Source: an uncultured virus (IMG/VR IMGVR_UViG_3300029908_000008) (lineage: Duplodnaviria > Heunggongvirae > Uroviricota > Caudoviricetes). Taken from it: 38,305 nt of DNA. Positions 1 to 38,204 of the stretch are shown in pieces. The DNA is taken from IMG/VR virus record IMGVR_UViG_3300029908_000008. The stretch is one strand, 5' to 3'. Below the pieces are notes generated by a model. It worked only from the letters and a program-made list of their open reading frames with translations. It searched no databases and had not been told where the DNA came from. Within the stretch, counting starts at the first letter, position 1. Each line of letters starts with the position of its first letter. A program made the translations under genes and the position numbers.

Positions 1-159
1 TAAATTTTGATTCACACATATCGTATTCCATTCAACATAATTTTGAAATTCAATTAAGAATTTTTCCTCTAATTTATATTCTTTGCATAATTTATACCAA
101 TTATATTTTTTAGGATATTTTCTTATTTTATTTATTTTTTCTTCAGTTAGAGTTTTCAT
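1..159 (-). CDS. Trp-repeat family protein, N-terminal part (runs off the window edge)
   Basis: Manual translation from ATG at 159: MKTLTEEKINKIRKYPKKYNWYKLCKEYKLEEKFLIEFQNYVEWNTICVNQNL, a clear paralog of 672..1253. Confidence 0.8.
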   Translation of the reverse strand, partial: MKTLTEEKINKIRKYPKKYNWYKLCKEYKLEEKFLIEFQNYVEWNTICVNQNL

Positions 160-477
160 TTATTTTAAATACCTCGGACATTTTATCATATTTTTTTTTA
201 ATGCAGAGTAAAATTTTGGAGCAATTTCATTATAACAATTTTTATTCCAAAGATTAATTGTTGATTCTATTTTTGGTCTATGTTTTTTATAAAATTTATA
301 TGATAATTTATCGTAATCTAAAGAATAATAACACATAGGCGACCACTCTAAAAAAACATCATATTTATTCACAAATTCTTCATCAAATTTGTATTTTCTA
401 TACTCTAACATGTTCCAATTGAACAATGCTGGGTTCTTTTCAATTTGTTTAATTATATATTTTGGTATTTTTTTCAT
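160..477 (-). CDS. Trp-repeat family small protein with C-terminal CPRYLK tag
   Basis: 105 aa ORF; KFDEEFVNKYDVFLEW resembles the repeat unit of 672..1253; C-terminal half is similar to that of 672..1253. Confidence 0.75.
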   Translation of the reverse strand: MKKIPKYIIKQIEKNPALFNWNMLEYRKYKFDEEFVNKYDVFLEWSPMCYYSLDYDKLSYKFYKKHRPKIESTINLWNKNCYNEIAPKFYSALKKNMIKCPRYLK

Positions 478-675
478 TTATTTTTTTAAATATTCTGGAC
501 AATCATTAGGAATATATAATTTGAATTGTTTTTTAAACGTATCTTTGGATGTTGTACCGCAATTACTTACATCAAGCACATTTTCATAGTCAACATCAAA
601 TCTTGTAGTAGAACAAACTTTAACAATAAGATTTGTTTTAATTTTACTAATATAAACTTCGCCTGGATTAATCAC
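478..675 (-). CDS. small hypothetical protein with CPEYLKK tag
   Basis: 65 aa ORF; ATGA overlap with upstream gene; similar to 5024..5233. Confidence 0.75.
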   Translation of the reverse strand: MINPGEVYISKIKTNLIVKVCSTTRFDVDYENVLDVSNCGTTSKDTFKKQFKLYIPNDCPEYLKK

Positions 676-1253
676 GATAAGTATTTTGGTTTCACATTAA
701 TTTTATATTTTTTCAATGCTTGATGAAATTTTATATATTCTTCTTTAAGACTTTGGAATCCAGTATTATTTACAAAATTTACAAACGTACTTCTTATTTT
801 ATATTGAAATTTTCTTAGAAATATTTCGGAAATTTTATCGAAATCTACTGCATAACAAATATTAATCCAACTAATTTGTTTAGAATAATCTGTGATGAAA
901 GTTTCTGATAATGGATGTCTTGACAAATTAATCCAAATATATTTATTATTAAATAAATACGCATATTTTCTTAAAAAATCTTCAGAAAAACCTGGCAATC
1001 TTGGTTTTTTATAAAAAATTCCTATCCAGTGTATATATTTAGAAGTATAATCAGAATCAATCAATAATTCTGTGATAAATTCTTCAGAAAGATATTGCTT
1101 GTCACAGACAATATCCCATTCTAAATAATCTTTAAATTCTCTCATAAAATCTTCAGAAAGTATATAATTTAAAGATATATCATACCAAATATATTTTTCT
1201 GGATTTAATCTAATTTTAGATATTTTATTTTCAGTGAGTTGTTTGGGCTTCAT
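672..1253 (-). CDS. Trp-repeat protein (~24-aa LSEDFxxxFxxxxxW repeats) with KPKYLS tag
   Basis: Repeats LSEDFMREFKDYLEW, LSEEFI, FSEDFLRKY, LSETFITDYSKQISW, ISEIFLRKF. Confidence 0.8.
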   Translation of the reverse strand: MKPKQLTENKISKIRLNPEKYIWYDISLNYILSEDFMREFKDYLEWDIVCDKQYLSEEFITELLIDSDYTSKYIHWIGIFYKKPRLPGFSEDFLRKYAYLFNNKYIWINLSRHPLSETFITDYSKQISWINICYAVDFDKISEIFLRKFQYKIRSTFVNFVNNTGFQSLKEEYIKFHQALKKYKINVKPKYLS

Positions 1254-1255
1254 AG

Positions 1256-1756
1256 TTATAAATCCATTAGTTTTAAATTTTCTTTATTCCAAAATCTAAT
1301 ATATGCAAGTCTCATTAATTTAGTTCTCTCTTTATCAAGTAGTTTTCTACCATGAATTAAATCCGGCGCGGATTTAAGAATTTCAACAATAAATTTTTTA
1401 CCTACAATCTTTATTGATAATAATCCAGCGTAATCAGGGATATCATTAATTAAACTATCTGCTAAATCACTAGGCATCGCAAACCAAAATTTATGAATCA
1501 AATGGTTATCTATAACTGTAGATTTGTATTTTTTAATTCCATAAACTAATTTTTTATGTTTAAGTTTTTTAGATTTAAATTCCCTTTTAAAATCCGCCGC
1601 GCTTATTTTAATTTCTACTTCTTCTAACCAATCATTCTTGTTTAGTACAAGAATGTCCGCTTCGTATCCAGTAAATTTGCATCTTGGTACAATTATTTGA
1701 TCTAAAAAATTCCAATGTTTAGTGGCAAGAATTCTTGTGATATCAGTAGAAGTCAT
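1256..1756 (-). CDS. MmcB-like PD-(D/E)XK nuclease-fold protein
   Basis: EADILVL...EVEIKISAADF...FWFAMP...IPDYAGLL pattern typical of MmcB-like phage proteins. Confidence 0.7.
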   Translation of the reverse strand: MTSTDITRILATKHWNFLDQIIVPRCKFTGYEADILVLNKNDWLEEVEIKISAADFKREFKSKKLKHKKLVYGIKKYKSTVIDNHLIHKFWFAMPSDLADSLINDIPDYAGLLSIKIVGKKFIVEILKSAPDLIHGRKLLDKERTKLMRLAYIRFWNKENLKLMDL

Positions 1757-1765
1757 TTACTAGAT

Positions 1766-2482
1766 TCAAGACAATAATGGATTATATCTTGTACCGTCCT
1801 CATCACAATAAATTAGTTCCGCATCAGGCAATACCATCTGACCATTAACAGTGTTAATATTAATAAACAATTCTTCAGACTTTGCTTGTTGCACAACTAA
1901 GTCCTCATTATCATAAATAAAAGTCCATCCTCTAATTTCAGTGAGTGGTTTACCATTGTTATGCAATTCTTCTAATGGGCTTTTTACAGTTACAGATGCT
2001 TTTTCAATTGCTAGTAAATGAATTAATGCTTTTAATAAATGATATGGATTATTTGAGAAGTCACTAGGATAAGTATAAAGCCATGATGATGTACCATTAG
2101 AGTTTTTACTTACATGACAAACATGGCCCGAACTAAATTTAACTTCTGCGGTTTTTAATACATCTGATGCTAAAATTTCAAGAAAATCGTCAATATCAGG
2201 ATTGTTGATAGCCATTTCAAAAACTTTATTGGCTGTCTCTTCCACAATCTTGTCCACAAGAATATCATCATCACAATTAATAAAAGATAAATTTTGAGAA
2301 TCAGCAAAATTGATTGCTCTTAAGACTGCATCATCTTTATTTTCTACGCCTCTGATATGATCCTTAATACCAATTAAACTCCATTCAAGTTCTGATAATT
2401 TACTGTATTCAGCCACATAAAATTTATTATCTTTAGGATTCTCATAGGTAGATATAAAATTTTTATCTTTCTTTTTTGACAT
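1766..2482 (-). CDS. hypothetical protein
   Basis: 238 aa ORF in operon context; no recognised motif. Confidence 0.75.
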   Translation of the reverse strand: MSKKKDKNFISTYENPKDNKFYVAEYSKLSELEWSLIGIKDHIRGVENKDDAVLRAINFADSQNLSFINCDDDILVDKIVEETANKVFEMAINNPDIDDFLEILASDVLKTAEVKFSSGHVCHVSKNSNGTSSWLYTYPSDFSNNPYHLLKALIHLLAIEKASVTVKSPLEELHNNGKPLTEIRGWTFIYDNEDLVVQQAKSEELFININTVNGQMVLPDAELIYCDEDGTRYNPLLS

Positions 2483-2490
2483 AATTATTA

Positions 2491-2721
2491 TTATACAGTT
2501 TTTAGATAGTTTGGCATCAATAATATTTTTCTAATAAATACGAAATTAAGCCTTAAGATAATGTTATTATCGTATAAAATATCATAACAATTTCCAATTT
2601 TGCTAAAAATAGTTCCTTTTCTATGATAATATATATATGCTTGATTTTGACGAGAAAGGCATGTGCTGTATACTATATCTCCAATTTCAAATTCTGTTTT
2701 TTTAATATCTGTTATTATCAT
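2491..2721 (-). CDS. small SH3/KOW-like protein with MPNYLKTV tag
   Basis: FEIGDIV start motif, beta-rich 76 aa. Confidence 0.7.
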   Translation of the reverse strand: MIITDIKKTEFEIGDIVYSTCLSRQNQAYIYYHRKGTIFSKIGNCYDILYDNNIILRLNFVFIRKILLMPNYLKTV

Positions 2722-2915
2722 TTTAATTTTAAATAATCTGGAATTATTGGATTATATAGTTCTAACTCAGAGTTTTCAAAACAAATATCTTCAGTAATAT
2801 CAGTATAATATTCTTTATATTCATATTCAATAATAAATCCACGTTTAAATAAATATTCTTCAAATGCTGGTGGCACTCTGACCACAATCACATAATCACC
2901 TGGTTTAAATTTCAT
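2718..2915 (-). CDS. small SH3/KOW-like protein with IPDYLKLK tag
   Basis: MKFKPGDYVIV...FENSELELY. Confidence 0.75.
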   Translation of the reverse strand: MKFKPGDYVIVVRVPPAFEEYLFKRGFIIEYEYKEYYTDITEDICFENSELELYNPIIPDYLKLK

Positions 2916-3106
2916 TTGCTAAAGTACTCCGGAATTGTTTTAATAACTATTTCACATTCTTCATTTGTTATTTTAAATATAGAATTTTAGATTTTGATAT
3001 ATAAAAATTTATTAATAACTTTAAATACACGACTATATTTTTCATTAATATAATAGGCACAATCAAGAGTGCGAATTAAAGAGCCTACTTTAAATATTTC
3101 GGACAT
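2912..3106 (-). pseudogene. small array gene with internal stop, degenerate tag IPEYFSK
   Basis: Manual translation MSEIFKVGSLIRTLDCAYYINEKYSRVFKVINKFLYIKI*NSIFKITNEECEIVIKTIPEYFSK*; in-frame TAA at 2987-2989. Confidence 0.6.
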
Positions 3107-3282
3107 TCTTTCTCCACAAATTCAAATTCTGTATCTAATAATTCATAAATTTCATCATTAACAATAACACTCGAATAAAGTGTGTCTTGATAATAAACTT
3201 TAGAAATTTCATTTATAATATTAAATCTTAATGCATATTTGCAATGTTTTATTTTTATTAATCGATTTATTATGTTTCTCAT
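3085..3282 (-). CDS. small hypothetical protein with ECPKYLK tag
   Basis: Track ORF 3085..3303; the more likely start is the ATG at 3282, overlapping the upstream stop (ATGA). Confidence 0.7.
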   Translation of the reverse strand: MRNIINRLIKIKHCKYALRFNIINEISKVYYQDTLYSSVIVNDEIYELLDTEFEFVEKECPKYLK

Positions 3283-3443
3283 TTTAATAAATATTTTGGA
3301 CAATTAATTCTAGTAATTTCTTCTTCTAAAAACATATGGCATTGGTTGCTAATAGTTACGTAGTAAAAACCAAAATGATAAAGCGCAACCGAGCCGATGC
3401 CTTTACAACTTTTAATTTTATCTCCAGTTTTATATTTATTCAT
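3279..3443 (-). CDS. 54-aa SH3-like protein with NCPKYLLK tag (not in ORF track)
   Basis: Manual translation MNKYKTGDKIKSCKGIGSVALYHFGFYYVTISNQCHMFLEEEITRINCPKYLLK*. Confidence 0.7.
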   Translation of the reverse strand: MNKYKTGDKIKSCKGIGSVALYHFGFYYVTISNQCHMFLEEEITRINCPKYLLK

Positions 3444-3505
3444 AATTTATAAATATCTATACTTATAATAGTAGCCATATCATTACTAGGAAATGTTTCT
3501 AGAGT

Positions 3506-3709
3506 TTAAATTTTATTTATCAAATAATTCGGTTTAATAATTGGTTTATAATAATCTAATTCGGATTCATGATAATTACCAATATATTGGAAACCTTCCA
3601 TACTTTCTAATCCAAAATAATATTCAGAGCCAATTCTATTTACAGAATAAATTTTACATGATTCTCGATAAAATGGCCTATGTACAACAATATCGCCTTT
3701 TTGATACAT
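3506..3709 (-). CDS. small SH3/KOW-like protein with KPNYLINKI tag
   Basis: MYQKGDIVV...YHESELDYY. Confidence 0.75.
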   Translation of the reverse strand: MYQKGDIVVHRPFYRESCKIYSVNRIGSEYYFGLESMEGFQYIGNYHESELDYYKPIIKPNYLINKI

Positions 3710-3718
3710 GATTTATTA

Positions 3719-3945
3719 TTATATTTTCATATATTTCAGACATTGTTTATTAGATAATCTAAATTCATAGTAATATAAACTTTGATAATTATAACGAATT
3801 TTCTGGTTTTTGTAAAAATTATCACATGTTCTTAAAATCATTACAGTAAAATGGCTCTCGTCAACTTCGATAATTTTACACGCTTGATACCATAAACTCT
3901 TTCATAAATTAAGATATTACCTTCTTTAATTTGCGATTTTATCAT
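3719..3945 (-). pseudogene. frameshifted small array gene, degenerate tag QCLKYMKI
   Basis: MIKSQIKEGNILIYE then a frame change near 3900 to SLWYQACKIIEVDESHF...FRLSNKQCLKYMKI*; resembles 3950..4195 (ACEVIE, FRL). Confidence 0.6.
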
Positions 3946-3949
3946 TTAT

Positions 3950-4195
3950 TTAATATTTAAGATATTCTGGCCGTCGGTATAACAGTCTAAAACCATTTTC
4001 AGACAATGTAAATAAATCGCCTGGCATAAGATTTCCACCATTAATTTTTGGATTTATTAAACTGATCTTTATGCATCCTGTGTATCCATAAATTGTGTGT
4101 ACATTAGTTTCAATTACTTCACATGCAGTATTAACTAAATCTTCAATCCATTCAGCACCAATAAAAACTAACTTATCACCAATATTGTATGTCAT
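3950..4195 (-). CDS. small SH3-like protein with RPEYLKY tag
   Basis: Track ORF 3950..4213; likely start MTYNIGDKL at 4195 (ATGA overlap). Confidence 0.75.
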   Translation of the reverse strand: MTYNIGDKLVFIGAEWIEDLVNTACEVIETNVHTIYGYTGCIKISLINPKINGGNLMPGDLFTLSENGFRLLYRRPEYLKY

Positions 4196-4398
4196 AATAA
4201 ATACTCCGGACAATTATTCAATAATCTTAAATTGTTTTCTGTAAAATCGATTTGATGCGCTGGTAAATCTGATGGATGAGTTCTGTAATAACAGTTATGA
4301 GTATCTAAAAAATACCTAATTTCCACTATTATACAAGGCGAATCTGGCCAGTATCCAGAAATATCCATAACTTTATCGCCAATTTTGAATTTACTCAT
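4192..4398 (-). CDS. small SH3/KOW-like protein with NCPEYLL tag
   Basis: MSKFKIGDKV...FTENNLRLL. Confidence 0.75.
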   Translation of the reverse strand: MSKFKIGDKVMDISGYWPDSPCIIVEIRYFLDTHNCYYRTHPSDLPAHQIDFTENNLRLLNNCPEYLL

Positions 4399-4499
4399 TA
4401 TAGTTTTTATTTTTGTTGGTAAATTTTAATATCAATTATATTTAACAAGATATTTCTTCGTGAAATAAATATCACCAATTTTATTTATAATGGTTATAA

Positions 4500-4733
4500 T
4501 TATTTTAAATAATTTGGACATTTTTTAAATAAGTATGGAACAAAATATTTTATAAAATCTACTTTAAAATCCAAATAAAAGTCAAAAGCATAATCAAAAT
4601 TACAATCAAAATTATTGTCAAAATAATTGTTGCCATAGTATATGTATTCAATACTTTGATTATTAGTTGATATTATCTTGACTAGTTCATAACTTTTTTT
4701 ATCAATATATACATTATTTATTTTTAAAATCAT
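4500..4733 (-). CDS. small protein with KCPNYLK tag; paralog of 4821..5027
   Basis: Likely start MILKINNVYIDKK at 4733; shares MILKxNNxYIDK, NQxIxYxY and FxKYFxPY with 4821..5027. Confidence 0.75.
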   Translation of the reverse strand: MILKINNVYIDKKSYELVKIISTNNQSIEYIYYGNNYFDNNFDCNFDYAFDFYLDFKVDFIKYFVPYLFKKCPNYLK

Positions 4734-4815
4734 TTTAAATATTTTTGACAATTCATTATCAATTTTAATTCTGATTCAACAAAATATATGATAAAAATAA
4801 CATATATTTTGACGG
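4730..4815 (-). pseudogene. 3' remnant of a small array gene, degenerate tag NCQKYLK
   Basis: Frame reads YVIFIIYFVESELKLIMNCQKYLK*; no convincing start. Confidence 0.5.
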
Positions 4816-4820
4816 ATTAT

Positions 4821-5027
4821 TTAGGCTTTATTATTTTTTAAATAAAAAGGACATTCTTTAATAGGATATGGAAAAAAATATTTTGTAAAATTAAAATCAT
4901 AATTCCAATCAAGAGAATCATGGCCATGAATATATTCATAACTAATAGTTTGATTTACATAACGAGTTATTTTTACTATATGCTGTCGCTGTTTATCAAT
5001 ATATAAATTATTTGTTTTTAAGATCAT
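4821..5027 (-). CDS. small protein with ECPFYLKNNKA tag
   Basis: Likely start MILKTNNLYIDKQ at 5027 (ATGA overlap). Confidence 0.75.
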   Translation of the reverse strand: MILKTNNLYIDKQRQHIVKITRYVNQTISYEYIHGHDSLDWNYDFNFTKYFFPYPIKECPFYLKNNKA

Positions 5028-5233
5028 TTTTTTAAATATTCTGGACAATTAATTTTGTTTTTATACAAAGTAAAAATCGATGCCGCGAATGATATAGTAT
5101 GCATATATGTATATGGATGTTTATCAGAAAGTTTTCTATACTCTAAAAAATCATTATCAACTTTAACTATTTCTATAATTTCTTCATGCCCCGACTTATA
5201 CCTACATACATAAAATTCGCCCAGTTTAAACAT
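5024..5233 (-). CDS. small protein with NCPEYLKK tag
   Basis: 69 aa, MFKLGEFY start; TAATG overlap with the infA stop. Confidence 0.75.
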   Translation of the reverse strand: MFKLGEFYVCRYKSGHEEIIEIVKVDNDFLEYRKLSDKHPYTYMHTISFAASIFTLYKNKINCPEYLKK

Positions 5234-5484
5234 TATTTAATTCTTTTAGTGATTCTACCATTCAAAAGATCATATGGCGATAATTCTACCACAACTGTAT
5301 CTCCAACTAAAATTTTAATATGATTTTGTTTCATTTTACCAGCAATATATCCACTCACCGTTAAATTATCACCAATATCTACAGCAACACGCGCATTTGC
5401 AAATATCTCCTGTACTATACCTGTGACCTCAATTGCTTCTTCTTTTTGTTTTTCTTGTTTTTTAATTATTTTATTTCTTCCCAA
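5233..5484 (-). CDS. infA: translation initiation factor IF-1
   Basis: KEEAIEVTGIV...YIAGKMKQNHIKILVGDTVVVELSPYDLLNGRI closely matches the IF-1 S1-domain consensus. Confidence 0.93.
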   Translation of the reverse strand: MGRNKIIKKQEKQKEEAIEVTGIVQEIFANARVAVDIGDNLTVSGYIAGKMKQNHIKILVGDTVVVELSPYDLLNGRITKRIK

Positions 5485-7603
5485 ATTTTAATTTCTCCTT
5501 AAATTTATGGTATTGTTCTTTTTCAATGATTTCACTCATGTCGATGTATTTCTCAGCGATTTCTCTAATAGAATCTTTTCCCAAATATGATTGTGTGCTA
5601 AGAATTATTGATAATTCCATTAGAAAATCAATATTATCCTTGAGCATTTGCAAACATTCCTCCCGAGCATTATCTAAAATATTATCCATATTACTATCTA
5701 AAGTATTGTACATGGCTTCTCCAAAATATAAATCTCTTGATATTTCCATAAGATTTGAAGTAAGCCCAGACATGACTAAACTCTGTGCTAATGAATTTGC
5801 TTGCGTGATATCACTTCCTGCACCAAAACAACGATTTTCATCACCAAAAATTAACTCTTCTGCTAATGTCCCTGCCAAACAAATTTTAATTTGATTAATA
5901 GCAGATTTTTTAGTAAGATGTTTATTGTAATTGACTTCCATAAAACCTAAACTATCACTATCTGCCGTTTTACTTCTTACTGATTTTGGAATGATTTTTT
6001 CATAAATAATATGAGCCACAACATGCCCTGCCTCATGAACTGCGACAGCCGCTTGTTCTTCAGAATCATCAGATTGCCTCAGATTGTCCATACTTAATTT
6101 AATTGGATAATTAAATTCTTGATTATTAATTTTAACATCATGAATACTATCTTTATAATCCCAAACAATTTTACTCACATTGCCTAGTGTAAAACAATCA
6201 ATTAATATATTTGGCATATATGATGTAATATGTGTGGAAATAGTGTGAAGAACAGGTCTTGCACCTTGAGTTGGTACAACTCCTTCTTTATAAATTAATT
6301 CCCTAATATTATCCGTAAATTCAAGGTCAATATTATAATGAGTTTTAAATTTTTGTTTTTCTCTGATTAAATTAAGGTCAATTAAACTATAATAATCATT
6401 CCTACTAAACGCCTTGTAAATAAGAAAATTATTACCCATTCTAGATAATTGTTCAGGACGATATAATTTAAGCAAACTCTCTTTCACAGATTGTGCTGTA
6501 ATTTTCTCAGAATTCTCAAAGAATGTATCTGGATCGATATCTGGATTTAATTCTTTGCTTACACCATAAGCGGAATCAATATTTGCTAATGTAAAAATAA
6601 CAGACTGGGATAAATTAATTGAAGCCATTGATGTAGAAATTATTTTAATGATTTTTTTCAAATAATCCACAATATTTTTAGCAGAGTCTAATTCTTTGAT
6701 TTTGTTAAAGAACACTTTATAATCTTTTTGATAATCAAAGAATGATGGCGCAGAATCATAAAGAAAATTATACGTAGACTCTGGAACGAATGGTAATTGA
6801 GTAAAACCACCAGTAAGTCTTTGTAATGAATTAATTTTTTCTGCATAAAGGTTTGGATTTGAAAGATAATATCTAAAATCTTCCATTTCCTCACTAAATT
6901 CTTCATCTTTTCCGCGCGGATCTGAATCTAACAATTCACATTTATTATCAAAAAAATCTTGCCAGCATACTACATATTCTTCATCAGTGCCATATGGTAA
7001 ATTACATTTATTAAGAAATGTGCGATAATTTTCTTCATCATTTACAATTATTCCATTTTTTACTTGAATTTTAGATTCTAAACATTGAGTATAACCGTTT
7101 AACAGCACCCTAGAAATAGAATTATCTATTGTAAGGTTTACCACACCAGAATCAAGTAAATCCCAAATATCTCTCAGAGAACCTCTTTCTAATTCGTCAC
7201 CTTCTTTATCTAGAGTTCTTCCCAATTGAAATTCATCGAAACAAATAATTGATTGTTTCGGATAATAAGTCTTATAAAAAGTATGAAGATCTTTTCCTAA
7301 TTTGTCATTTGCTTTTGTTGCGTAGTTACCTACGTCAATTCTTGCATAGTTGTCTTTCAAATCCAGCAATTCTACAAGCCGATTAATTAATGAGGTTTTC
7401 CCACATCCGGTTAAACTAACTAAATTAATAATAATTGGCTTTGTGAGAGATTCTGGAAGAATATAAAAAGGTTTAATTAATTGCATTAATTCTGCAATGA
7501 CGTAATCAATTCCCACAAATTCTTTTTTAAGTTGTGATTCAATCTGATTAAGATGATTCTGACGTTTAAGGATATCTTGTTGACGTGTTTTTGTAATTTT
7601 CAT
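5471..7603 (-). CDS. soluble AAA+ ATPase fused to an M41 (FtsH-type) zinc metallopeptidase
   Basis: Walker A SLTGCGKTS, Walker B ICFDE, Clp-like RPEQLSR and GARP, then HEAGH and LAGTLAEELIFG...GAGSDI; no evident transmembrane segment. Confidence 0.85.
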   Translation of the reverse strand: MKITKTRQQDILKRQNHLNQIESQLKKEFVGIDYVIAELMQLIKPFYILPESLTKPIIINLVSLTGCGKTSLINRLVELLDLKDNYARIDVGNYATKANDKLGKDLHTFYKTYYPKQSIICFDEFQLGRTLDKEGDELERGSLRDIWDLLDSGVVNLTIDNSISRVLLNGYTQCLESKIQVKNGIIVNDEENYRTFLNKCNLPYGTDEEYVVCWQDFFDNKCELLDSDPRGKDEEFSEEMEDFRYYLSNPNLYAEKINSLQRLTGGFTQLPFVPESTYNFLYDSAPSFFDYQKDYKVFFNKIKELDSAKNIVDYLKKIIKIISTSMASINLSQSVIFTLANIDSAYGVSKELNPDIDPDTFFENSEKITAQSVKESLLKLYRPEQLSRMGNNFLIYKAFSRNDYYSLIDLNLIREKQKFKTHYNIDLEFTDNIRELIYKEGVVPTQGARPVLHTISTHITSYMPNILIDCFTLGNVSKIVWDYKDSIHDVKINNQEFNYPIKLSMDNLRQSDDSEEQAAVAVHEAGHVVAHIIYEKIIPKSVRSKTADSDSLGFMEVNYNKHLTKKSAINQIKICLAGTLAEELIFGDENRCFGAGSDITQANSLAQSLVMSGLTSNLMEISRDLYFGEAMYNTLDSNMDNILDNAREECLQMLKDNIDFLMELSIILSTQSYLGKDSIREIAEKYIDMSEIIEKEQYHKFKEKLKFGKK

Positions 7604-7678: not shown

Positions 7679-9319
7679 ATGTGGTACAGATTTATAATTT
7701 CATCTAAACAAGATGTGATGACAATTTTAAATAATGACCAACAAAAATTTGATTTAATAAAGAATTTAAAATTAAATCCTAAGTTTGAAACCACAGCGGC
7801 TTGGCTTTTACATCAAACTGATATTTCTCAAGTGCAAGATTTGTGCAGAAAATTGAAAATTTTAGATGATAAAAAACCTATTAATATAAATACTAATAAA
7901 AATGGCGTTCATTACAATGGCCATCATTTTACAGATTATATGAAATTTGCTGAAGCAGTGGATGCGTCTTACACTTTAATTTCATATCGTCCAAAATATA
8001 CTGTCGAGCCAGAAGAAAATGAAGTAGGAAAAATAAAAATATTTAAAGCGGATAATGTCGGCGACACTATAAAATATGGGCAAGGAACTCCATGGTGTAT
8101 TGCTCAACCAGGTAACACTTATTATCAATCATATAGGGATCTTGATGCTAGTACTTTTTATTTTATTTTTGATGGCACGAGAGATAAAAATGATCCATTA
8201 TCTAGAGTAGTGCTAGATATGAATAAGCACGGATGTGAACTAACAGATCTTAATAATACTACAGGAACAATAGAAGAATTTGGAAAAAATTCAAATGAAT
8301 ATCTTAAATACTTGCAGGACAAAGGTGTTGATATCAACCAATTTAAAAATATCCCAAAATCTGAAAAAGAAATTGAAGAAAATAGAGATTTAGGTAAAAG
8401 AATATTGTCATTACAATTTTTTCAGAGACTTTCATATGATTATAAAACAAAATATATTGGTCGCGGCCACATACTTACCAATGAACAATTGGAATATTTA
8501 ATACATAATAATGCCAAAGATTTAATATCACAATATCTTGATACAGGGATTAGCATTCCTCCAAGCCAAATAAAAATGATATCCAATAAAGAGGCCTTTC
8601 TCAACACATATAAAAGAAAACAAAAAATATCATTAGAACAGATTATAAATTTTTACAATAACTCTATTCCTGATTTAGGGCAGGTCGCGGCAGAAACTAA
8701 AAATTATGAATTAATGGATTATGTAATTAAAAAAAACTTTGACCCAGATCACCTCGTGAAAACGGTTTATGATGAATATGAAAGAGAAGGCTATAATACG
8801 AATATTGCATACATTGAGTTACAAGAAACATTGTGGTGGTTATTAGGCAAAGGTGCTTCACCTTATGAATTAGTAGGCCGATTACCTACTGATATAAAAA
8901 CATTAAAAACACTTGTAAATAAGGCTGAACGCGGAGAAAAAATAAGCACCGCTGGAAAAGCGATCCTATATTGTGGCAACAATCTAGACGATATCAAATG
9001 GATGGTAGAAAATGGTGCAGATGCTAAATCTGGAATTCGTAGATATTTAAGTAGGGGTATTATTACTAATGATTTTGAAATTATTAAATGGTTTGTGGAT
9101 CATGGCCTAGACCCATCCACAGCCGCTTTTTATACAACAAACCCAGAAATATGGAGATGGTTGATAGAAAAACATAATGCCGATCCAGATTATGTAGGTG
9201 CTAGTATAATGTTTGGAGGAGGAAAACATGCAGAGTTATTTCCATGGTTAATACAATTGGGCTCCACAAACGATGGAGTAGCGAATGCTTATAAAATTAG
9301 AATTCATCATATAATTTGA
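7679..9319 (+). CDS. hypothetical protein with a GTPWC-motif domain and C-terminal ankyrin-like repeats
   Basis: 546 aa; GTPWCIA...YYQSY...FYFI; repeats WLLGKGA, KWMVENGAD, KWFVDHGLD, RWLIEKHNAD, PWLIQLG. Confidence 0.75.
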   Translation: MWYRFIISSKQDVMTILNNDQQKFDLIKNLKLNPKFETTAAWLLHQTDISQVQDLCRKLKILDDKKPININTNKNGVHYNGHHFTDYMKFAEAVDASYTLISYRPKYTVEPEENEVGKIKIFKADNVGDTIKYGQGTPWCIAQPGNTYYQSYRDLDASTFYFIFDGTRDKNDPLSRVVLDMNKHGCELTDLNNTTGTIEEFGKNSNEYLKYLQDKGVDINQFKNIPKSEKEIEENRDLGKRILSLQFFQRLSYDYKTKYIGRGHILTNEQLEYLIHNNAKDLISQYLDTGISIPPSQIKMISNKEAFLNTYKRKQKISLEQIINFYNNSIPDLGQVAAETKNYELMDYVIKKNFDPDHLVKTVYDEYEREGYNTNIAYIELQETLWWLLGKGASPYELVGRLPTDIKTLKTLVNKAERGEKISTAGKAILYCGNNLDDIKWMVENGADAKSGIRRYLSRGIITNDFEIIKWFVDHGLDPSTAAFYTTNPEIWRWLIEKHNADPDYVGASIMFGGGKHAELFPWLIQLGSTNDGVANAYKIRIHHII

Positions 9320-9646: not shown

Positions 9647-10501
9647 TCAACTGACTATGCAACGAGATAAACTATAATCATTTATTACAGCGAAGCCCAC
9701 TTCCTCGTATACAACCCATCCCAATCGAAGTCGTTTGGGATCATCGGCTGGAAGAACTGTGATATCCTGTCGAACAGGGATCGCTCCAACGAATTGCGCA
9801 GGTGCGCTTACATAGACAGCATTCTTAGGTACCATGGTACTTACATGAATGTCTGCTGAATATAAATGGCCATACAAACCGGTCATGAGAATATCGCGTT
9901 GAGTTGCCTCATCGTAAAATTCCTTACCCCAAGTTCGGATATCTTTATATCGTTGTGGGTGAACAATAATTTTAGCCCCGATTAATTCATGCTCTTCAAT
10001 GAGCGTCAGGCAGAGATTTATGTTTTCTGGTTGAAGAGTACCGCTCACTGACACTGATTGAACAGGAGGAACAGCGGCGTTAACCACCTTAAATACCTGT
10101 ACATCTTCTTGTCGTTGAATAGTATCTTTAGCACGTACTTGTGCGCGATCTACGATATAAAACCGTCTTTGGCGCACCTCATTTAGACGAATGCTAGGAT
10201 TAGCGGCGATTTCAATAGTAGGAACGAGTAGTTCTTCTGCTTCAACTTCTGACGTAGGTACTGAACCTCGTTTTGGAATGATATATGACTTTACAGCCAC
10301 ATCTCGTTCGTATCGTGCAAGTGTACCCTGAGGAAGTTCGTCCACCATAAGAATTTTACGACCAATCGCTTGGTACATTAAACTGGTTTTGATAGGCTCG
10401 ACCATTGCTTGCGCAAGGGCTGTTCGTCCTTCAGGAGTTTCAAGAGCCTGTGCGATAACAGTTTCTCTTTGTTCATTAATATTTCGTTTGATCATTGACA
10501 T
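9647..10501 (-). CDS. major capsid protein (compact HK97 fold)
   Basis: Last gene of the portal-protease-scaffold cluster; strong SD AAGGAGG; terminator downstream; higher GC; HK97-like C-terminal pattern (RLGWVVYEEVGFAVIN). Confidence 0.85.
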   Translation of the reverse strand: MSMIKRNINEQRETVIAQALETPEGRTALAQAMVEPIKTSLMYQAIGRKILMVDELPQGTLARYERDVAVKSYIIPKRGSVPTSEVEAEELLVPTIEIAANPSIRLNEVRQRRFYIVDRAQVRAKDTIQRQEDVQVFKVVNAAVPPVQSVSVSGTLQPENINLCLTLIEEHELIGAKIIVHPQRYKDIRTWGKEFYDEATQRDILMTGLYGHLYSADIHVSTMVPKNAVYVSAPAQFVGAIPVRQDITVLPADDPKRLRLGWVVYEEVGFAVINDYSLSRCIVS

Positions 10502-10519
10502 TTTAATATATTCCTCCTT

Positions 10520-11140
10520 TTAAGCGATGATTGTGTAGTAGAGCAAACCAGCGGTTGCATCAAAATAGTCAACACGTGCCGGTATTAAAGAACTGGCATT
10601 GTTGGTAGTAAGTAGTGGTGAACCTGATAACAGGTAGAGAGCCGCTCCGTTTGTATAAGTTGATGTTGCAACAGTGGTATCATAACGATCTGTTACGATT
10701 TGGCTACCGTGTGCGCGAACGACACCAACGCCACGAACTGGACTTGCGTTACCAGTTGAAGATACGTCAGTAAGGTTAGTTACAACAGCAACTGATTCGT
10801 CTTGGAAGTCACCAATTCTTCGTGTTGCGCCGACATAGAAGCCGTTTGCATATGAAGTAAAGAGTGAGCCGTTAGCAGAAACAATTGTTGAACCAACAGG
10901 GTCGTTCTGGATAATAGTATTTCCAGTAATATTATGGTCTGATGTACTAAAGCCAGCAAGAGTGCCAAGAGATAGTGCAGGAGCAGTGTCTGGACCGCCA
11001 ATTTGTTGTACTGGTTGTAGACCAGTCGCCCCAGAAGGAGATGAGATATCGAATGTTAGCGCATCGCCCTGGTAAAATTTAGCATTTGGTGAAACGTCGT
11101 AGTTGGCTACGATTGAGTTTTGTAAAAGTCTAAGTGCCAT
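10520..11140 (-). CDS. probable head decoration/cement protein
   Basis: Gly/Thr/Ser-rich beta protein directly upstream of the capsid gene; strong SD AGGAGG. Confidence 0.6.
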   Translation of the reverse strand: MALRLLQNSIVANYDVSPNAKFYQGDALTFDISSPSGATGLQPVQQIGGPDTAPALSLGTLAGFSTSDHNITGNTIIQNDPVGSTIVSANGSLFTSYANGFYVGATRRIGDFQDESVAVVTNLTDVSSTGNASPVRGVGVVRAHGSQIVTDRYDTTVATSTYTNGAALYLLSGSPLLTTNNASSLIPARVDYFDATAGLLYYTIIA

Positions 11141-11163
11141 TTTAAATTTAATCCTCCTATGAA

Positions 11164-13412: not shown

Positions 13413-16400
13413 TTAAATAATCCAGGTGATTTGAGTATCAAGGAGTCTTGAATCGTAAGGATTGTTTTGAATATTTGTTACGAACATGGTATTGCATGCA
13501 TTGCATTGACTTTGTTGCCCTGATTTGTTTACATCTCTGCTTGTGCAGACTGGACATACCATTCCCGCAGGATATATTTTAACTCCGGCTGTTTTAATAT
13601 TTGAATTGCCGATAAACACATCTGGATCTGTGGTGTAAGAAATTCTAAACATCGCATGATCAGCAGTTGCAGTTACAGGGCTACCTGATTCAGTTCCTTG
13701 CTGTGGCAATCCACCACCTGGTGCCGAAGGGAGAGGCGGTAATCCTGGTGCGGTTGAATCACCAAGACCGGCATCAGAAATCCCACTCGGAGCGTCTGCA
13801 CTGCCCATTGAATCTGATCCTGAATCAAACCCTTTAGGGTCAAGATTCCCTTTATATTTTTCGCCTTTATCCGGAGGAGCAACTTTAACAGACATTTCAA
13901 ATGTAAGTTGTGCGCCACAACTATTACATTTGCCTTGTCCACCAGCAGTATCTAAGTCTACTGATTGACACTGAGGGCAAACAGTACCCCAAGGCTTTTT
14001 GACACCTGGCGAGAATGACCCATCATCTTTGTTAGGAGAATCTTCTCCGCCCATACTTGGATCATCACCTAGTCCTGCCGGAGGACTTGTTGGCGAAGGG
14101 GCCTCTGCTGGTGATAATGAAGGGTCACTTTCTGGCCCTGCTGGACCCGCGCCTGCGGTTCCGGGCGCTCCCGGTGTAAGCCCTGCTGGTGCTGGTGGCG
14201 CGGTTGGAGCGCCTCCAGGAACAATACCTGGCGATAATTGAGCAAATTTTTCCATTAATTTTGCACGTTTAGCCGCTCTAGGATTATTTGTATCAGATGG
14301 TTGGACAGTTACCATTTGTGACATATCTGACAAATCAGGATTTTGATCAGCCACGCTTGTGTCAGGTGCAGAATCTGCTGTATACATTTTAGAAACTCGA
14401 CTTTCCACCTTCGCCATAATTTTACCATCAGGCAAATAATCTACTGATGTGAGGGAGAAATCTTTTCCTAAATCCATACCCTTGCTCTGCAAGACTGATG
14501 CAATTTTAGTTTTAAGAACCTCATCAATATTTGGATCATTTACATCCACACCAAGATCGTTCGCGCTAAGACAGAATTCTTTTACATTATGTTTTTCTTC
14601 TCTTACATTAATAGACGCTGTGCGTTTTTCATTTAATGCCTGTGCCGCCAATTTACGGCTAATATTAGGAGCATCATTAAAACTACAAATTACTCGCGCA
14701 AGATCTTTTGACCTTAAATTATAATCTTTAGAATAATCTGCTAAATGTCCAACTAAAGTACGAAGGATATCTTTTCTAGATGCTTTACGATTAAAGCCGT
14801 AGAAAGCAATTCTTTTCATATTTTTTGCGCGAATTGCAGAAGCCGAACTAGTTTTTGAAAGTTCAATTTGCTTTTGCAATTCATCTTCATCTGCACCTTT
14901 GGTGGCATTTAATACATCATCGGTACCTATTCCCAAATCATCGGCTGTATTAGCAATACTACTTACACCGCTTTTGACATCGGTTTCCGACACATTTGGA
15001 TCTGAATCATCTGCTTTGCTTGCTAGATCTGCACCAACCAAATCACTATCTGATGGAGTTGATTCATCAATTTTAGGTGCAACAACATTATCTTGTGCGA
15101 GTGCGTTAACTGCATTAGTTAGCGCTTTGGTAGCAACACTGAATTCATTCAATGCATTAACTAATCCTTGATGAAGGTCACCTGAAGTTGTGGTGTCATC
15201 TACTTGGTCTGATAATGCGTCTGCTGTAGCCATGGTAGGATCATCACTAGACCCTGGAACATCATTGCCATCTTCTTTCGCAAGTTGAGACTTAGTGATG
15301 AGATCAGGTCCGGCATTAGCAACATTTTTAGCACCATCCATAATTTCATCTGGTGTCATACCGGTGTTGATTGCGGCGGTTGCTAAAGCCATAATGACTT
15401 TTTCAACGTTACTTACAGCGCTTTTATTTTTAAAAATACGTTTTTCTTGGAGAAGATTCTCAATGACATCATCATACTCTCCACGCGGAAGAACAATCTT
15501 ATCTAGCATTTCTTCATAAGTTTTTGTTTGATATCCTTTGCGTGTATTCCAACCCTCCTCACCTAAACGCGATTCAATTGGACCTTTTGTTTCATGTCTT
15601 CGGCTTTCTGTTCGTTCCTGAAGAGTACGGAGGGCGGCATTATCATTCTTGTTATAAAGATGATCTTCAACCAATTGTGTTTCTATAGGTTTGTTAGTAA
15701 CTTTATCTGGTTTGGCATTATCCTCATTAACAAGTTGAGCGATAGAAGGTGTTTCGTAAATAGTAGCGGCAATTTTCATAAGTCTGTTTAATATACGTTC
15801 TCCGGCAATATCTAGATCACCTTTCTCAATAAGTTTGGCTTCATCGGGAGTCACAATAGGATCAAAAGAGGTTTTTCGATTATCAATATACCCACTGGCT
15901 TTACCATCAGACGACAAAACAATCTTAAAATTATCAGATTCTACTTCATAAATATTTTTTTCTTCATTATACTTGTGGGCAAATTTTTTAGCGAAAGACA
16001 TTAAATTATTCCCTCCATCATTTATATTGTTATCGTTGCACGATAAATTGTCCTTTATTTCTAAATTATTAGTATCAAAATTTAATAATTCTAATAAATA
16101 CCCTAATTTAACTAACATATTATCTGCCTTCGCGCCTTTAAGGATATCATTCTCAGATGAAAACGGATTGTTATCATCCATAGAATTTTCAGAAAAGGAT
16201 TGTGTCTGAGTCTGTGTAGGATTTTGACTCTGTGTTTGGCCCGGTGCAATTACTTGTCCTACATTGCTTTCAGTGGGCACTTGTGGATTCGGTGTAGAAG
16301 GTGCGTTTCCTGGTGAATTACCCATTCCATCGTCAATTAAATCTTGCATTGTGGATTGAAGTTCAGCCATGGCTTTAGTAATTTTTCCTACGTGGTTAAG

Positions 16401-36632: not shown

Positions 36633-37628
36633 CTATTTTTTAGCAGAACAAAATGCTAAAATTTTAAAAAAGCATAATTGAAAATTAAGATTACTCGGTA
36701 CAGCAGGATTTATATTGTTAATATGTTGAAAAATAATATCATCTATTTTGACAAGACTGTTTTGACCTGCATTTTTTAAAAATTCGGTGGAATTGCCAAT
36801 TATTTTTTCTGATATTTCTGATGTAACAATATTAAATGCCTCTTTCAATGCTTCATCAGGATTAATATTTGATTTTAAAATTTGTGTAATTGTATTAATA
36901 AGTTTTTGTTTATCATTATTAAAACAACAATAAAACAATTCTTTTATTAATGACTCCGGCGCGGAACCCATTATTGATATTATATTGTCTTCAGTCGCGC
37001 CAATTTTAATAAATTGAGACAATAACATTAATGACTCTCGAAAACTCCCATTGGAGTTTTTAGCAATAATCTCTATTGAGTCATCATATTTTATCTTTTC
37101 TGCATCTGCCACTTTTTTTAAAAGATCAATAATATCAGGTATTTCAGCATCGTTAAATTTTACTTGTAAAGATCTGGACTTTAATGCTTGAACTAATTTT
37201 TTAGGTTCAGTTGTGCAGAGGATAAATGTTAGAAATTCTGGGGGATTTTCTAGAATTTGCAAGAGAGAATTTTGAGATGTAGAAGAAAGCATCTGACATT
37301 CATCTAATATCACATATTTTCTAGATAATTGCCTTGGCGGTAGATTACATTTATCAATAATTAACTCTTTAATCTGATCTACACCACCATTCATGGCACA
37401 ATTATATTCTATAAAATCACTTAGGCTATTGAGATTTTCAATATTTTTATTTTCTATTTTAGAAACTAAAATTTTTGCCGCGCTTGTTTTACCGCATCCT
37501 GGGCTTCCATAAAACAAATAGCAAGGCGCTATATAATCATTTAATAATTCAAAGATTCTTTGAATATTTTTTTGCCCAAGAATATCATGGGTAGATTGTG
37601 GACGATATTTTTCTGCTAGACTTTTCAT
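36633..37628 (-). CDS. dnaX: DNA polymerase III gamma/tau-like clamp-loader ATPase
   Basis: LAEKYRP...DILGQ, Walker A GSPGCGKTS, ILDECQML, LENPP...FILCTTEP, KSRS, GSFRES. Confidence 0.88.
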   Translation of the reverse strand: MKSLAEKYRPQSTHDILGQKNIQRIFELLNDYIAPCYLFYGSPGCGKTSAAKILVSKIENKNIENLNSLSDFIEYNCAMNGGVDQIKELIIDKCNLPPRQLSRKYVILDECQMLSSTSQNSLLQILENPPEFLTFILCTTEPKKLVQALKSRSLQVKFNDAEIPDIIDLLKKVADAEKIKYDDSIEIIAKNSNGSFRESLMLLSQFIKIGATEDNIISIMGSAPESLIKELFYCCFNNDKQKLINTITQILKSNINPDEALKEAFNIVTSEISEKIIGNSTEFLKNAGQNSLVKIDDIIFQHINNINPAVPSNLNFQLCFFKILAFCSAKK

Positions 37629-37822
37629 AAATTTAAATAACTTGGTCTTGTATTTGCTGTGCGATAAACATGATCATTTTTTAAAATAAAATCTTTATGT
37701 ATTATGCGATCAATTTCCTGTTGGGGTACCTGTTTAGATAGATATCCGGATATAAAAAAATAATTTGTGCTATATTTACTCATTATTTCATATATTTTTA
37801 GCGACAATTCTGAATCAGTCAT
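37625..37822 (-). CDS. small hypothetical protein with RPSYLNL tag
   Basis: 65 aa; ATGA overlap with dnaX. Confidence 0.7.
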   Translation of the reverse strand: MTDSELSLKIYEIMSKYSTNYFFISGYLSKQVPQQEIDRIIHKDFILKNDHVYRTANTRPSYLNL

Positions 37823-38051
37823 TTTTACTTAAATACTCCGGTTTACAAATAAAAGGTATAGTAGAAACTAGGCTTTGTTTTGGATCTGTGTCGTCAAAAA
37901 TAAAATATTCTGAATTTACCATGAGCAATCCGATACCTTTTATATGGTCATAATTTTCATAAAATAAATAATATAATTTATTTTCTTCAATAGAATTATT
38001 GTGTTCTAAAATTATTTTTCTTATTATAGTCACAATTTCATTTTTGGTCAT
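37815..38051 (-). CDS. small hypothetical protein with CKPEYLSKND tag
   Basis: 78 aa ORF. Confidence 0.7.
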   Translation of the reverse strand: MTKNEIVTIIRKIILEHNNSIEENKLYYLFYENYDHIKGIGLLMVNSEYFIFDDTDPKQSLVSTIPFICKPEYLSKND

Positions 38052-38054
38052 TTT

Positions 38055-38204
38055 TTATTTTAAATACTCTGGCTTCTTATTTACAATTACAACATCATAA
38101 TAATAATCGTCTTGAATCATTTTTCTAATTAAATATAATAATTTATAATATTGTACAAATAATAAAGGTGACAATATACTAAATAAAGAAGAATAATAAG
38201 TAAA
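38055..38204 (-). pseudogene. gene remnant or very short ORF ending KKPEYLK
   Basis: Frame reads ...LIRKMIQDDYYYDVVIVNKKPEYLK*, bounded upstream by an in-frame TAG at 38205-38207. Confidence 0.5.

What the first reader, a model, noticed from the sequence alone, without database searches (positions are those of the whole stretch)
160..5233. Shared C-terminal P-x-Y-L-(K) tag on many unrelated small phage proteins: candidate undescribed tagging system
Seen: 13 intact ORFs in this arm end, within a few residues of the stop, in CPRYLK, CPEYLKK, KPKYLS, MPNYLKTV, IPDYLKLK, CPKYLK, CPKYLLK, KPNYLINKI, RPEYLKY, CPEYLL, CPNYLK, CPFYLKNNKA and CPEYLKK. The carriers are different sequence types (Trp-repeat proteins, FxxGDxV SH3-like proteins, the MILKxNN pair), so this is not simple paralogy. 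Codons vary synonymously (Pro CCA/CCG/CCT, Tyr TAT/TAC, Leu TTA/CTA/TTG/CTT), which favours protein-level selection. IF-1, the MmcB-like nuclease and the structural genes lack it. Inference: a portable C-terminal signal, which could be a degron, a capsid-loading peptide, or a docking motif for one partner protein.
Basis: partly seen in the sequence, partly recalled or inferred. Interest (0 to 1): 0.92.

Follow-up and report, generated by a model that had tools for sequence, protein, structure and literature searches.

The report
Shared C-terminal tag on phage proteins
An uncultured peat phage ends at least sixteen otherwise unrelated small proteins with the same short peptide (Pro-x-Tyr-Leu, usually Cys-Pro-x-Tyr-Leu-Lys), which looks like an address label read by one still unknown partner.

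Summary
All 13 listed tails are present, and 3 more lie at the other end of the window. That makes 15 of 43 curated minus-strand genes, plus one short frame. Residue shuffles give a mean of 0.06. Related jumbo-phage loci give 7 of 4932 ORFs.

The constraint is at protein level. The motif is always in frame, and conservation follows codons as CC-N-NNN-TAY-YTN. All differences at Pro, Tyr and Leu are synonymous. Four broken remnant frames have lost Pro and/or Leu.

The tag is portable:
- It sits as a low-confidence extension behind a small SH3-like beta barrel and behind an all-alpha Trp-repeat domain.
- Seven of seven distant relatives of the repeat protein lack it.

It was seen only in this phage lineage.

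My best guess is a docking or recognition tag for one common partner. The closest sequence look-alike is the FtsZ tail IPAFLRK, but membership fails on several features.

Earlier scan notes (unchecked AI notes) record analogous tags with other motifs on other phages, not this one.

The parts
160..477 (-). Carrier, 105 aa, Trp-repeat type, tail IKCPRYLK
   Evidence: related to 672-1253 with the tail trimmed (blastp 5e-11)
478..675 (-). Carrier, 65 aa (GTG start), SH3-like type, tail DCPEYLKK
672..1253 (-). Carrier, 193 aa, all-alpha Trp-repeat protein (phrog_3532), tail VKPKYLS as a coil after the last helix
   Evidence: Seven of 7 distant homologues lack the tail.
2491..2721 (-). Carrier, 76 aa, SH3-like type, tail LMPNYLKTV
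2718..2915 (-). Carrier, 65 aa, SH3-like type, tail IIPDYLKLK
3085..3282 (-). Carrier, 65 aa from its ATG, no similarity to the others, tail ECPKYLK
3279..3443 (-). Carrier, 54 aa, SH3-like type, tail NCPKYLLK
3506..3709 (-). Carrier, 67 aa, SH3-like type, tail IKPNYLINKI; next gene start 62 nt away
3950..4195 (-). Carrier, 81 aa from its ATG, SH3-like type, tail RRPEYLKY
4192..4398 (-). Carrier, 68 aa, modelled as a small beta barrel, tail NCPEYLL after the last strand (tail pLDDT 54)
4500..4733 (-). Carrier, 77 aa, MILK pair, tail KCPNYLK; next gene about 100 nt away
   Evidence: 4e-14 to 4821-5027
4821..5027 (-). Carrier, 68 aa, MILK pair, tail ECPFYLKNNKA; next gene about 70 nt away
5024..5233 (-). 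Carrier, 69 aa, small beta barrel, tail NCPEYLKK
   Evidence: structural neighbours align to residues 1 to about 60 in most rows
37625..37822 (-).
37815..38051 (-).
38055..38204 (-). Short frame (49 codons stop to stop, 21 aa from its ATG) ending KKPEYLK; gene status uncertain
2912..3106 (-). Two adjoining short frames that look like one frameshifted SH3-like carrier; their ends are KFLYIKI and IPEYFSK (degenerate tails)
   Evidence: that they are one broken gene is inference
3719..3945 (-). Short frames that look like a decayed carrier; end CLKYMKI (Pro and Leu lost)
   Evidence: inference
4730..4816 (-). 28-codon frame ending CQKYLK (Pro codon read as Gln); its stop overlaps the ATG of 4500-4733
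5471..7603 (-). Untagged soluble AAA+/M41 (FtsH-like) protease with an intact HEAGH motif and Walker A motif. It lies upstream of the tagged arm. Candidate reader, not tested.
1256..2482 (-). Two untagged genes inside the arm: an MmcB-like nuclease (166 aa) and a 238-aa protein of no family

Best explanation
The peptide [C/K/R]-P-x-Y-L-[K], followed by 0-4 further residues, is a portable C-terminal recognition motif private to this phage lineage. It has been placed on small accessory proteins of several unrelated kinds: SH3-like beta barrels, alpha-helical Trp-repeat proteins, the MILK pair and at least three orphans. It is kept by selection on the protein.

It most likely works as a short linear docking peptide. 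It projects a few residues beyond the folded domain and plugs into one common partner, so that many different proteins are brought to the same place or fate.

Shown in silico: enrichment, protein-level constraint, portability and location outside the fold.

Inferred: that there is a single reader, and what the outcome is. My rough split within this explanation is:
- targeting to a host or phage hub, 25%;
- degron for an AAA+ protease, such as the phage's own soluble AAA+/M41 enzyme next door or a host one, 20%;
- loading into the capsid, 10%.
For: (1) Enrichment. 15 of 43 genes plus one short frame carry the tail, against a shuffle mean of 0.06 and maximum of 2. Related loci give 7 of 4932 ORFs; the 79 related metagenome loci other than L061 give 12 ORFs, at most 2 per locus.

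(2) Frame. The DNA word CCNNNNTATTTA occurs 13 times on the minus strand. Twelve are in-frame tails, one is an in-frame internal PDYL, and none is out of frame or intergenic.

(3) Codon-shaped conservation. Information sits on CC, TA(T/C) and (T/C)T, with free third positions and a free x codon, and nothing is conserved in the flanks.

(4) Every difference from the commonest codons at Pro, Tyr and Leu is synonymous (CCG 5, CCT 1, TAC 1, CTA 1, TTG 1, CTT 1). By my count only about a quarter of non-stop single-base changes of CCA, TAT and TTA are synonymous.

(5) Four broken or very short frames in the gaps have degenerate tails: CQKYLK, CLKYMKI, KFLYIKI and IPEYFSK. Three have lost Pro and three have lost Leu. 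This is what relaxed protein selection predicts.

(6) Four tails (3085, 3506, 4500, 4821) have no intact downstream gene within about 60-170 nt, so the motif does not depend on a neighbouring start.

(7) Portability:
- With tails trimmed, only 2 of the carrier pairs are related.
- 4192-4398 models as a small barrel whose tail follows the last strand at pLDDT 54. Its Foldseek neighbours are PWWP, KOW and PsaE barrels at E about 0.03.
- 672-1253 models as all-alpha at pLDDT 87.6, with the tail as a coil behind helix 167-182.
- In 8 of the 9 Atlas structural rows for 5024-5233 the alignment ends at residue 59-65; one row runs to residue 69.
- Seven of 7 distant Trp-repeat homologues have no such tail.
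Against: No reader was found.

The tag was seen in a single lineage. The window, L061 (99.94% identical) and P0001 (97%) are the only carriers seen, and DNA of the 77% relatives could not be fetched. There is therefore no independent evolutionary replication.

The motif sits only 2-4 residues behind the last secondary-structure element. That is short for a flexible tag.

Eight carriers may be one old paralogous family, so part of the sharing is descent.

CCG is over-used for Pro (5 of 15 against 1 of 43 in the arm), and the base after CC is a purine in 15 of 16 sites. This hints at some nucleotide-level or ancestry effect.

Twelve of 16 tails lie within about 15 nt of the next start codon.

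The AAA+/M41 protease family is widespread in phages that show no such tag, so the protease does not need it.
Confidence: 0.55

Rival explanations
1. Inherited or intrinsic structural element with no separate reader. Most carriers would be very diverged members of one small-protein family that kept its C-terminal end. The tail would do something intrinsic, such as capping the domain, self-association, or contact with nucleic acid or membrane. The Trp-repeat proteins would have picked it up by recombination.
For: Eight carriers align with a common N-terminal M-x-[FY]-K-x-G-[DE] and a common pattern of strand followed by tail. The tail is only 2-4 residues from the last strand or helix. The arm shows birth-and-death turnover of such genes.
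Against: The motif occurs on a beta barrel and on an all-alpha repeat protein. It is modelled outside the core at low confidence. In most Atlas rows for 5024-5233 the aligned part stops before the tail. Relatives of the repeat family do without it. With tails trimmed, only 2 carrier pairs are detectably related. Three orphans and the MILK pair share nothing else with the barrel group.
Confidence: 0.2
2. Nucleic-acid signal at gene junctions. The conserved bases would serve the downstream gene (translation initiation region or translational coupling) or act as recombination linkers for shuffling gene cassettes. Their translation as P-x-Y-L would be secondary.
For: Twelve of 16 tails are within about 15 nt of the next start, often with an ATGA overlap. 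Arm genes mostly lack a Shine-Dalgarno sequence, while structural genes have AGGAGG. Remnant frames keep the TAT-rich part next to the following ATG although Pro is lost. Pro CCG and a purine run after CC are over-represented. Many metagenome contigs match only 20-30 nt at the motif sites and have other flanks.
Against: No out-of-frame or intergenic copy exists. The unconstrained positions are exactly the codon third positions and the x codon. The Leu variants TTA, CTA, CTT and TTG keep the residue but not the bases. Spacing to the next start varies from an overlap to 170 nt. Promoter-like sites are not enriched (56 against 52.2 expected) and no terminator was found. Starts that do not follow a tagged gene show no such sequence, except 24822-25268.
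Confidence: 0.12
3. Nascent-peptide effect on termination. P-x-Y-L-K in the exit tunnel would slow release at the stop codon and so favour re-initiation on the adjacent downstream cistron, which lacks a Shine-Dalgarno sequence.
For: The motif is always within 1-5 residues of the stop. Most tails abut the next start, and arm genes lack a Shine-Dalgarno sequence. Short remnant frames still end in a tail-like peptide right at the next ATG.
Against: The distance to the stop is variable. Four tails have no nearby downstream start. Remnants have lost Pro. I know of no precedent for this motif (recalled, not searched).
Confidence: 0.05

Closest known systems
FtsZ conserved C-terminal tail (E. coli DYLDIPAFLRKQAD), the hub peptide bound by ZipA, FtsA, MinC, ZapD, ClpX and SlmA (PMC4117426, passages read; PMC3618327, passages read)
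   Same: Both are short peptides near the C-terminus with the same core order: hydrophobic residue, Pro, any residue, aromatic, Leu, basic. Compare I-P-A-F-L-R-K with C-P-E-Y-L-K-K. In both, the core is followed by a short variable end. In FtsZ one peptide is read by several partners. In FtsZ the Ile and Leu are needed for binding.
   Different: Here the aromatic residue is always Tyr. The residue before Pro is Cys, Lys or Arg in 14 of 16 sites (Ile once, Met once). An acidic residue two places before Pro occurs once in 16. No long disordered linker precedes the tail. The carriers are small phage proteins, not a tubulin. Whether any FtsZ-tail binder reads this tag is not known.
Phage T4 capsid targeting sequence shared by internal proteins IPI-III and Alt (recalled from the literature, not looked up here)
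   Same: Within one phage, a short terminal peptide is shared by otherwise unrelated proteins and sends them to one destination.
   Different: The T4 signal is N-terminal and is cleaved off by the prohead protease. This tag is C-terminal. Nothing here shows packaging or cleavage.
C-terminal recognition signals of AAA+ proteases and their adaptors: the ssrA tag, the MuA-type C-motif and the SspB XB tail for ClpX (recalled)
   Same: These are short portable C-terminal peptides that commit diverse proteins to one machine. A phage AAA+/M41 protease gene lies directly upstream of the tagged arm.
   Different: Those signals are defined at the very last residues, and the ssrA type is non-polar. Here the conserved core is followed by 1-5 variable, mostly basic or polar residues. 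Phages with related proteases lack the tag.
Clamp-binding C-terminal tails: bacterial QL[SD]LF, and the T4 gp43, gp55 and gp33 tails for gp45 (recalled)
   Same: C-terminal hydrophobic peptides on unrelated proteins are read by one ring. Three tagged ORFs sit just upstream of the clamp loader gene.
   Different: There is no Gln and no Leu-Phe pair. No sliding clamp gene was recognised in the window.

Membership tests
FtsZ-type C-terminal hub peptide | Core P-x-[FY]-L-[RK] within a few residues of the C-terminus | tested here: met
   P-x-Y-L in 16 of 16 tails; Lys follows in 10 of 16. The FtsZ sequence comes from PMC4117426.
FtsZ-type C-terminal hub peptide | Asp followed by Ile or Val immediately before Pro. 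D373 and I374 matter for binding. | tested here: not met
   Before Pro: Cys 8, Lys 4, Arg 2, Met 1, Ile 1. Asp two places before Pro in 1 of 16.
FtsZ-type C-terminal hub peptide | Peptide carried on a long disordered linker behind the folded domain | tested here: not met
   The tail starts 2-6 residues after the last strand or helix in the two models.
FtsZ-type C-terminal hub peptide | Bound by FtsA, ZipA, SepF, MinC or ClpX of the host | not testable with these tools
AAA+ protease degron of the ssrA / C-motif type | Signal defined at the last 2-3 residues with a free carboxylate, non-polar in the ssrA type | tested here: not met
   The conserved core is followed by 1-5 variable residues; the last residue is K, S, V, I, Y, L, A or D.
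HbYX-type activator tail | Tyr as the penultimate residue of the protein | tested here: not met
   Tyr lies 2-6 residues before the last residue.
Clamp-binding motif (QL[SD]LF or T4 type) | Gln at the first position and a Leu-Phe or Phe-Leu hydrophobic pair | tested here: not met
   No Gln; the core is Pro-x-Tyr-Leu.
T4-type capsid targeting sequence | N-terminal position with a prohead-protease cleavage site | tested here: not met
   The tag is C-terminal in 16 of 16 carriers. Packaging itself is not testable here.
Promoter, Shine-Dalgarno or terminator element | Occurs independently of reading frame, at fixed spacing to the downstream start or as a stem-loop | tested here: not met
   Always in frame. 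Spacing ranges from an overlap to 170 nt. Promoter-like sites number 56 against 52.2 expected, with 0 terminators.

The most novel reading that the evidence does not exclude
The tail is a private address code of this phage lineage. One dedicated receptor reads [C/K]-P-x-Y-L-K on sixteen or more unrelated small effectors. The receptor would be either the phage's own soluble AAA+/M41 protease, which would clear the effectors on schedule, or a host hub that normally reads the FtsZ tail, which would bring them to the division machinery. New effectors would join the system simply by recombining onto the tail-encoding junction.
Probability: 0.4. Interest if true: 0.8.

Novelty: new variant of a known kind. 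Interest (0 to 1): 0.66.

Why it matters
Small phage accessory proteins are mostly orphans with no handle for study. A shared tag gives one handle for a whole set of them. A single peptide could be used to fish out the common partner and would show what a third of this region's genes are aimed at.

If it is a host hub, it would be a new form of peptide mimicry.

Earlier notes of this scan (unchecked AI notes) record comparable tags with different motifs in other phages. Terminal tags on phage accessory proteins may therefore be a general layer of phage cell biology. My two literature searches found no description of it.

Tried and rejected
Whole genome and near relatives
- No whole genome is held for the window.
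- Earlier-findings look-ups by genome, look-alike stretches and protease sequence returned nothing.
- DNA of the 77%-identical relatives (P0010, P0011) could not be fetched. The single-protein scan of IMG/VR found none. Profile scans of metagenome contigs and IMG/VR returned only L061, which is the same phage, plus relatives of 37% identity or less. A scan of genome contigs with a subclade profile found none.

Homologues of the carriers
- 37625-37822 and 37815-38051 returned only themselves.
- The ten carriers looked up have no distinct variants at 90% identity (nine one-member clusters; the tenth differs only in how the GTG start is written).
- Pfam and PHROGs gave nothing for the small proteins except phrog_3532 for the Trp-repeat pair.

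Motif searched as DNA
- The pattern scan in IMG/VR gave 60 single, scattered matches. Four loci had one such ORF tail each and no locus had more than one.

Population variation
- Contigs of 4 peat runs laid on 1-5500 gave one SNP and a few indels, too few for any test. L061 differs from the window by 1 mismatch and 2 gaps.
- No RNA holder was listed among the sequencing runs.

Co-folding
- One job, E. coli FtsA residues 1-390 with 5024-5233, gave 'no answer' (score 0.00, mark 0.34, controls not run). It says nothing either way.
- The protease, capsid protein and other candidates were not co-folded, because only one job was allowed.

Sliding clamp
- None was recognised. 34218-34907 and 34916-35896 have no Pfam, PHROG or PDB sequence match. 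The 238-aa arm protein has none either.

Other
- The Atlas search of 37815-38051 gave nothing usable.
- FtsZ sequences of named genomes could not be fetched.
- Readings considered and dropped, because the position or pattern does not fit: CaaX prenylation box, heme-regulatory Cys-Pro motif (Cys in only 8 of 16), PTS1- or KKxx-type eukaryotic signals, polyprotein read-through (stops are a mix of TAA, TGA and TAG, and the next genes are in other frames).

Full report
WHAT THE WINDOW IS

The window is a 38.3-kb piece of an uncultured phage. Nearly all genes lie on the minus strand. It encodes:
- a large terminase, a portal, a major head protein and a head-protease domain;
- a clamp loader and two sigma-70-like factors;
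- an IF-1 homologue (5233-5484);
- a 710-aa soluble AAA+/M41 (FtsH-like) protease with intact Walker A and HEAGH motifs (5471-7603).

The same protease sequence is recorded on contigs of up to 162,305 bp. The protease family is common on phage contigs of 80-520 kb. The tagged stretch is held, at half or more of its sampled words, by four peat-metagenome runs from four studies, one of which may be the source. The small-gene arm has 25% G+C and the structural core 30-41%.

THE OBSERVATION

Three more lie at the other end of the window, just upstream of the clamp loader. Of 26 P-x-Y-L hits in six frames, 16 lie 1-5 residues before the stop of a minus-strand ORF.

The enrichment is far beyond chance:
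- In a curated set of 43 minus-strand genes, 15 carry the tail and only 2 P.YL occur internally in 11,489 residues. Twenty thousand within-protein shuffles gave a mean of 0.06 tails and never more than 2.
- The 79 metagenome loci around related proteases, other than L061, held 12 ORFs ending P.Y[LIMF], at most 2 per locus. The total was 24 of 4218 ORFs over all 80 loci, 12 of them in L061.
- Seventy IMG/VR loci held 7 of 4932 ORFs ending P.YL.
- In a de novo count of all three-residue tail patterns, P.YL scored 14 of 103 ORFs in the window. The best pattern in any other locus scored 6 and was low-complexity.
- Cys precedes Pro in 8 of 16 tails, against 1.6% Cys in the arm. Lys follows Leu in 10 of 16, against 10.7% Lys.

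PROTEIN OR NUCLEIC ACID?

Most of the evidence points to the protein:
- The DNA word CCNNNNTATTTA occurs 13 times on the minus strand. Twelve are the in-frame tails, one is an in-frame internal PDYL in the DUF192 gene, and none is out of frame or intergenic.
- Per-base information is confined to CC, TA(T/C) and (T/C)T. The Pro third position and the whole x codon are free, and conservation stops on both sides.
- Every departure from the commonest codons at Pro, Tyr and Leu is synonymous (CCG 5, CCT 1, TAC 1, CTA 1, TTG 1, CTT 1). By my count only about a quarter of non-stop single-base changes of CCA, TAT and TTA are synonymous. Eleven out of eleven is therefore very unlikely under neutrality, about 1e-6 if the changes were independent, which shared ancestry may violate.
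- Outside CCG, codon use in the motif matches the arm.
- Promoter-like sites are not enriched (56 found, 52.2 expected) and no terminator was found.
- Four tails have no intact gene start nearby.
- The gaps of the arm hold four short or broken frames with degenerate tails: CQKYLK, CLKYMKI, KFLYIKI and IPEYFSK. Three have lost Pro and three have lost Leu. This is what decay after loss of protein-level selection would look like. It also shows that the arm turns over by gene birth and death.

Some evidence points the other way:
- CCG is over-used for Pro (5 of 15 against 1 of 43 in the arm).
- The base after CC is a purine in 15 of 16 sites.
- Twelve of 16 tails lie within about 15 nt of the next start codon.
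- Arm genes mostly lack a Shine-Dalgarno sequence, whereas structural genes have AGGAGG.

A secondary role of the junction in coupling or in cassette recombination is therefore not excluded.

IS THE TAG PORTABLE?

The carriers are not all one family:
- With tails trimmed, all-against-all blastp links only 160-477 with 672-1253 (5e-11) and 4500-4733 with 4821-5027 (4e-14). Every other pair has E above 0.007.
- Eight carriers do align with a common M-x-[FY]-K-x-G-[DE] start. They are probably one old SH3-like family.

Structure predictions place the tail outside the fold:
- The AlphaFold model of 4192-4398, built on that paralogue alignment, is a four-strand barrel (mean pLDDT 69). The tail follows the last strand at pLDDT 54. 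The nearest solved folds are PWWP, KOW and PsaE barrels (E about 0.03, TM 0.6).
- In 8 of the 9 Atlas structural rows for 5024-5233 the alignment ends at residue 59-65; one row runs to residue 69.
- The model of 672-1253 is all-alpha (pLDDT 87.6). The tail is a coil behind helix 167-182, and the last three residues have pLDDT 46.

The Trp-repeat family shows the tail is an add-on. Eight homologues of 672-1253 were found. Only the 97%-identical P0001 has the tail, and the 7 relatives at 30-38% identity do not. So the tail sits on at least two different folds, outside the folded core, and has been added to a family that elsewhere lacks it.

HOW WIDE IS IT?

The tag was seen only in this phage.
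- L061 is the same phage at 99.94% identity.
- The tested carriers are orphans.
- Neither the motif as DNA nor the neighbourhoods of 149 related protease genes show it or any other recurrent tail.
- Contigs of relatives with 77% protease identity exist but could not be fetched.
- Contigs in the peat runs that match only 20-30 nt at the motif sites and continue differently suggest further tagged genes outside the window. This was not quantified.

WHAT IT MOST LIKELY DOES

The pattern is that of a short linear docking motif read by one common partner: a short conserved core, a variable end, a position outside the fold, many unrelated carriers, and restriction to one lineage. Which partner reads it is open.

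The phage's own AAA+/M41 protease lies directly upstream and is an obvious candidate for a degron reading. However, its relatives occur in phages without the tag.

The closest sequence look-alike I could document is the conserved FtsZ tail DYLDIPAFLRKQAD. It is read by ZipA, FtsA, MinC, ZapD, ClpX and SlmA, and its Ile and Leu are required for binding (PMC4117426, passages; PMC3618327, passages). The shared core is P-x-aromatic-L-basic near the C-terminus. The Asp-Ile before Pro and the long linker are not shared, so I do not file the tag as a member of that family.

T4's capsid targeting sequence (recalled) is the closest phage precedent in concept, but it is N-terminal and cleaved.

LITERATURE

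Two full-text searches found no description of a shared C-terminal motif on phage small proteins (listings and abstracts only). One hit, PMC3896991, was searched for five terms and held none. A search on phage FtsH-like proteases (listing only) showed that jumbo-phage papers mention FtsH. None was read.

Earlier notes of this scan (unchecked AI notes) report analogous tags with other motifs on other phages. I did not test them.

VERDICT

'Portable C-terminal signal under protein-level selection' is supported in silico. 'Tagging system' remains a hypothesis, because no reader is known and the tag has been seen in only one lineage.

Noticed in passing
window 5471-7603 (-): Soluble AAA+/M41 (FtsH-like) protease. 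I noticed no N-terminal membrane segment, but ran no prediction for one. There are also 70 IMG/VR loci, mostly on contigs of 80-520 kb. Residues of about 155-330 are poorly conserved across the family.
   Followed up: partly
window 5233-5484 (-): Phage-encoded translation initiation factor IF-1 homologue (PF01176, 1.6e-16). It lies between the protease and the tagged arm.
   Followed up: no
window 17555-19861 (-): The portal protein carries a C-terminal DUF559 / MTES_1575 endonuclease-like domain at residues 651-747. This is an unusual fusion.
   Followed up: no
window 13413-17513 (-): A 1366-aa protein whose N-terminal part (residues 52-241) matches head-maturation-protease families. The rest is unassigned.
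   Followed up: no
window 7679-9319 (+): The only sizeable plus-strand gene. It encodes a 546-aa protein with weak ankyrin-repeat matches near its C-terminus and lies between the protease and the major head protein.
   Followed up: no
window 185-368: Contig depth over this bin is 362 in run X5 and 575 in run X7, against single digits elsewhere. Something abundant in those peat samples matches part of the Trp-repeat gene 160-477. Unexplained.
   Followed up: no
window 9647-13275, 23496-24788 versus 160-5233: Structural genes have strong Shine-Dalgarno sequences (AGGAGG or AAGGAG). Most small arm genes have none and start at or just after the preceding stop. The arm has 25% G+C and the core 30-41%.
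   Followed up: partly
window 33678-34199 and 35917-36570 (-): Two sigma-70-family factors with regions 2 and 4 lie near the clamp loader.
   Followed up: no
window 672-1253 versus P0001 / L061: The only protein difference seen between the near-identical strains is a small indel in a repeat of the Trp-repeat carrier (KKPRLPGF against KKTNF). The tail is unchanged.
   Followed up: partly
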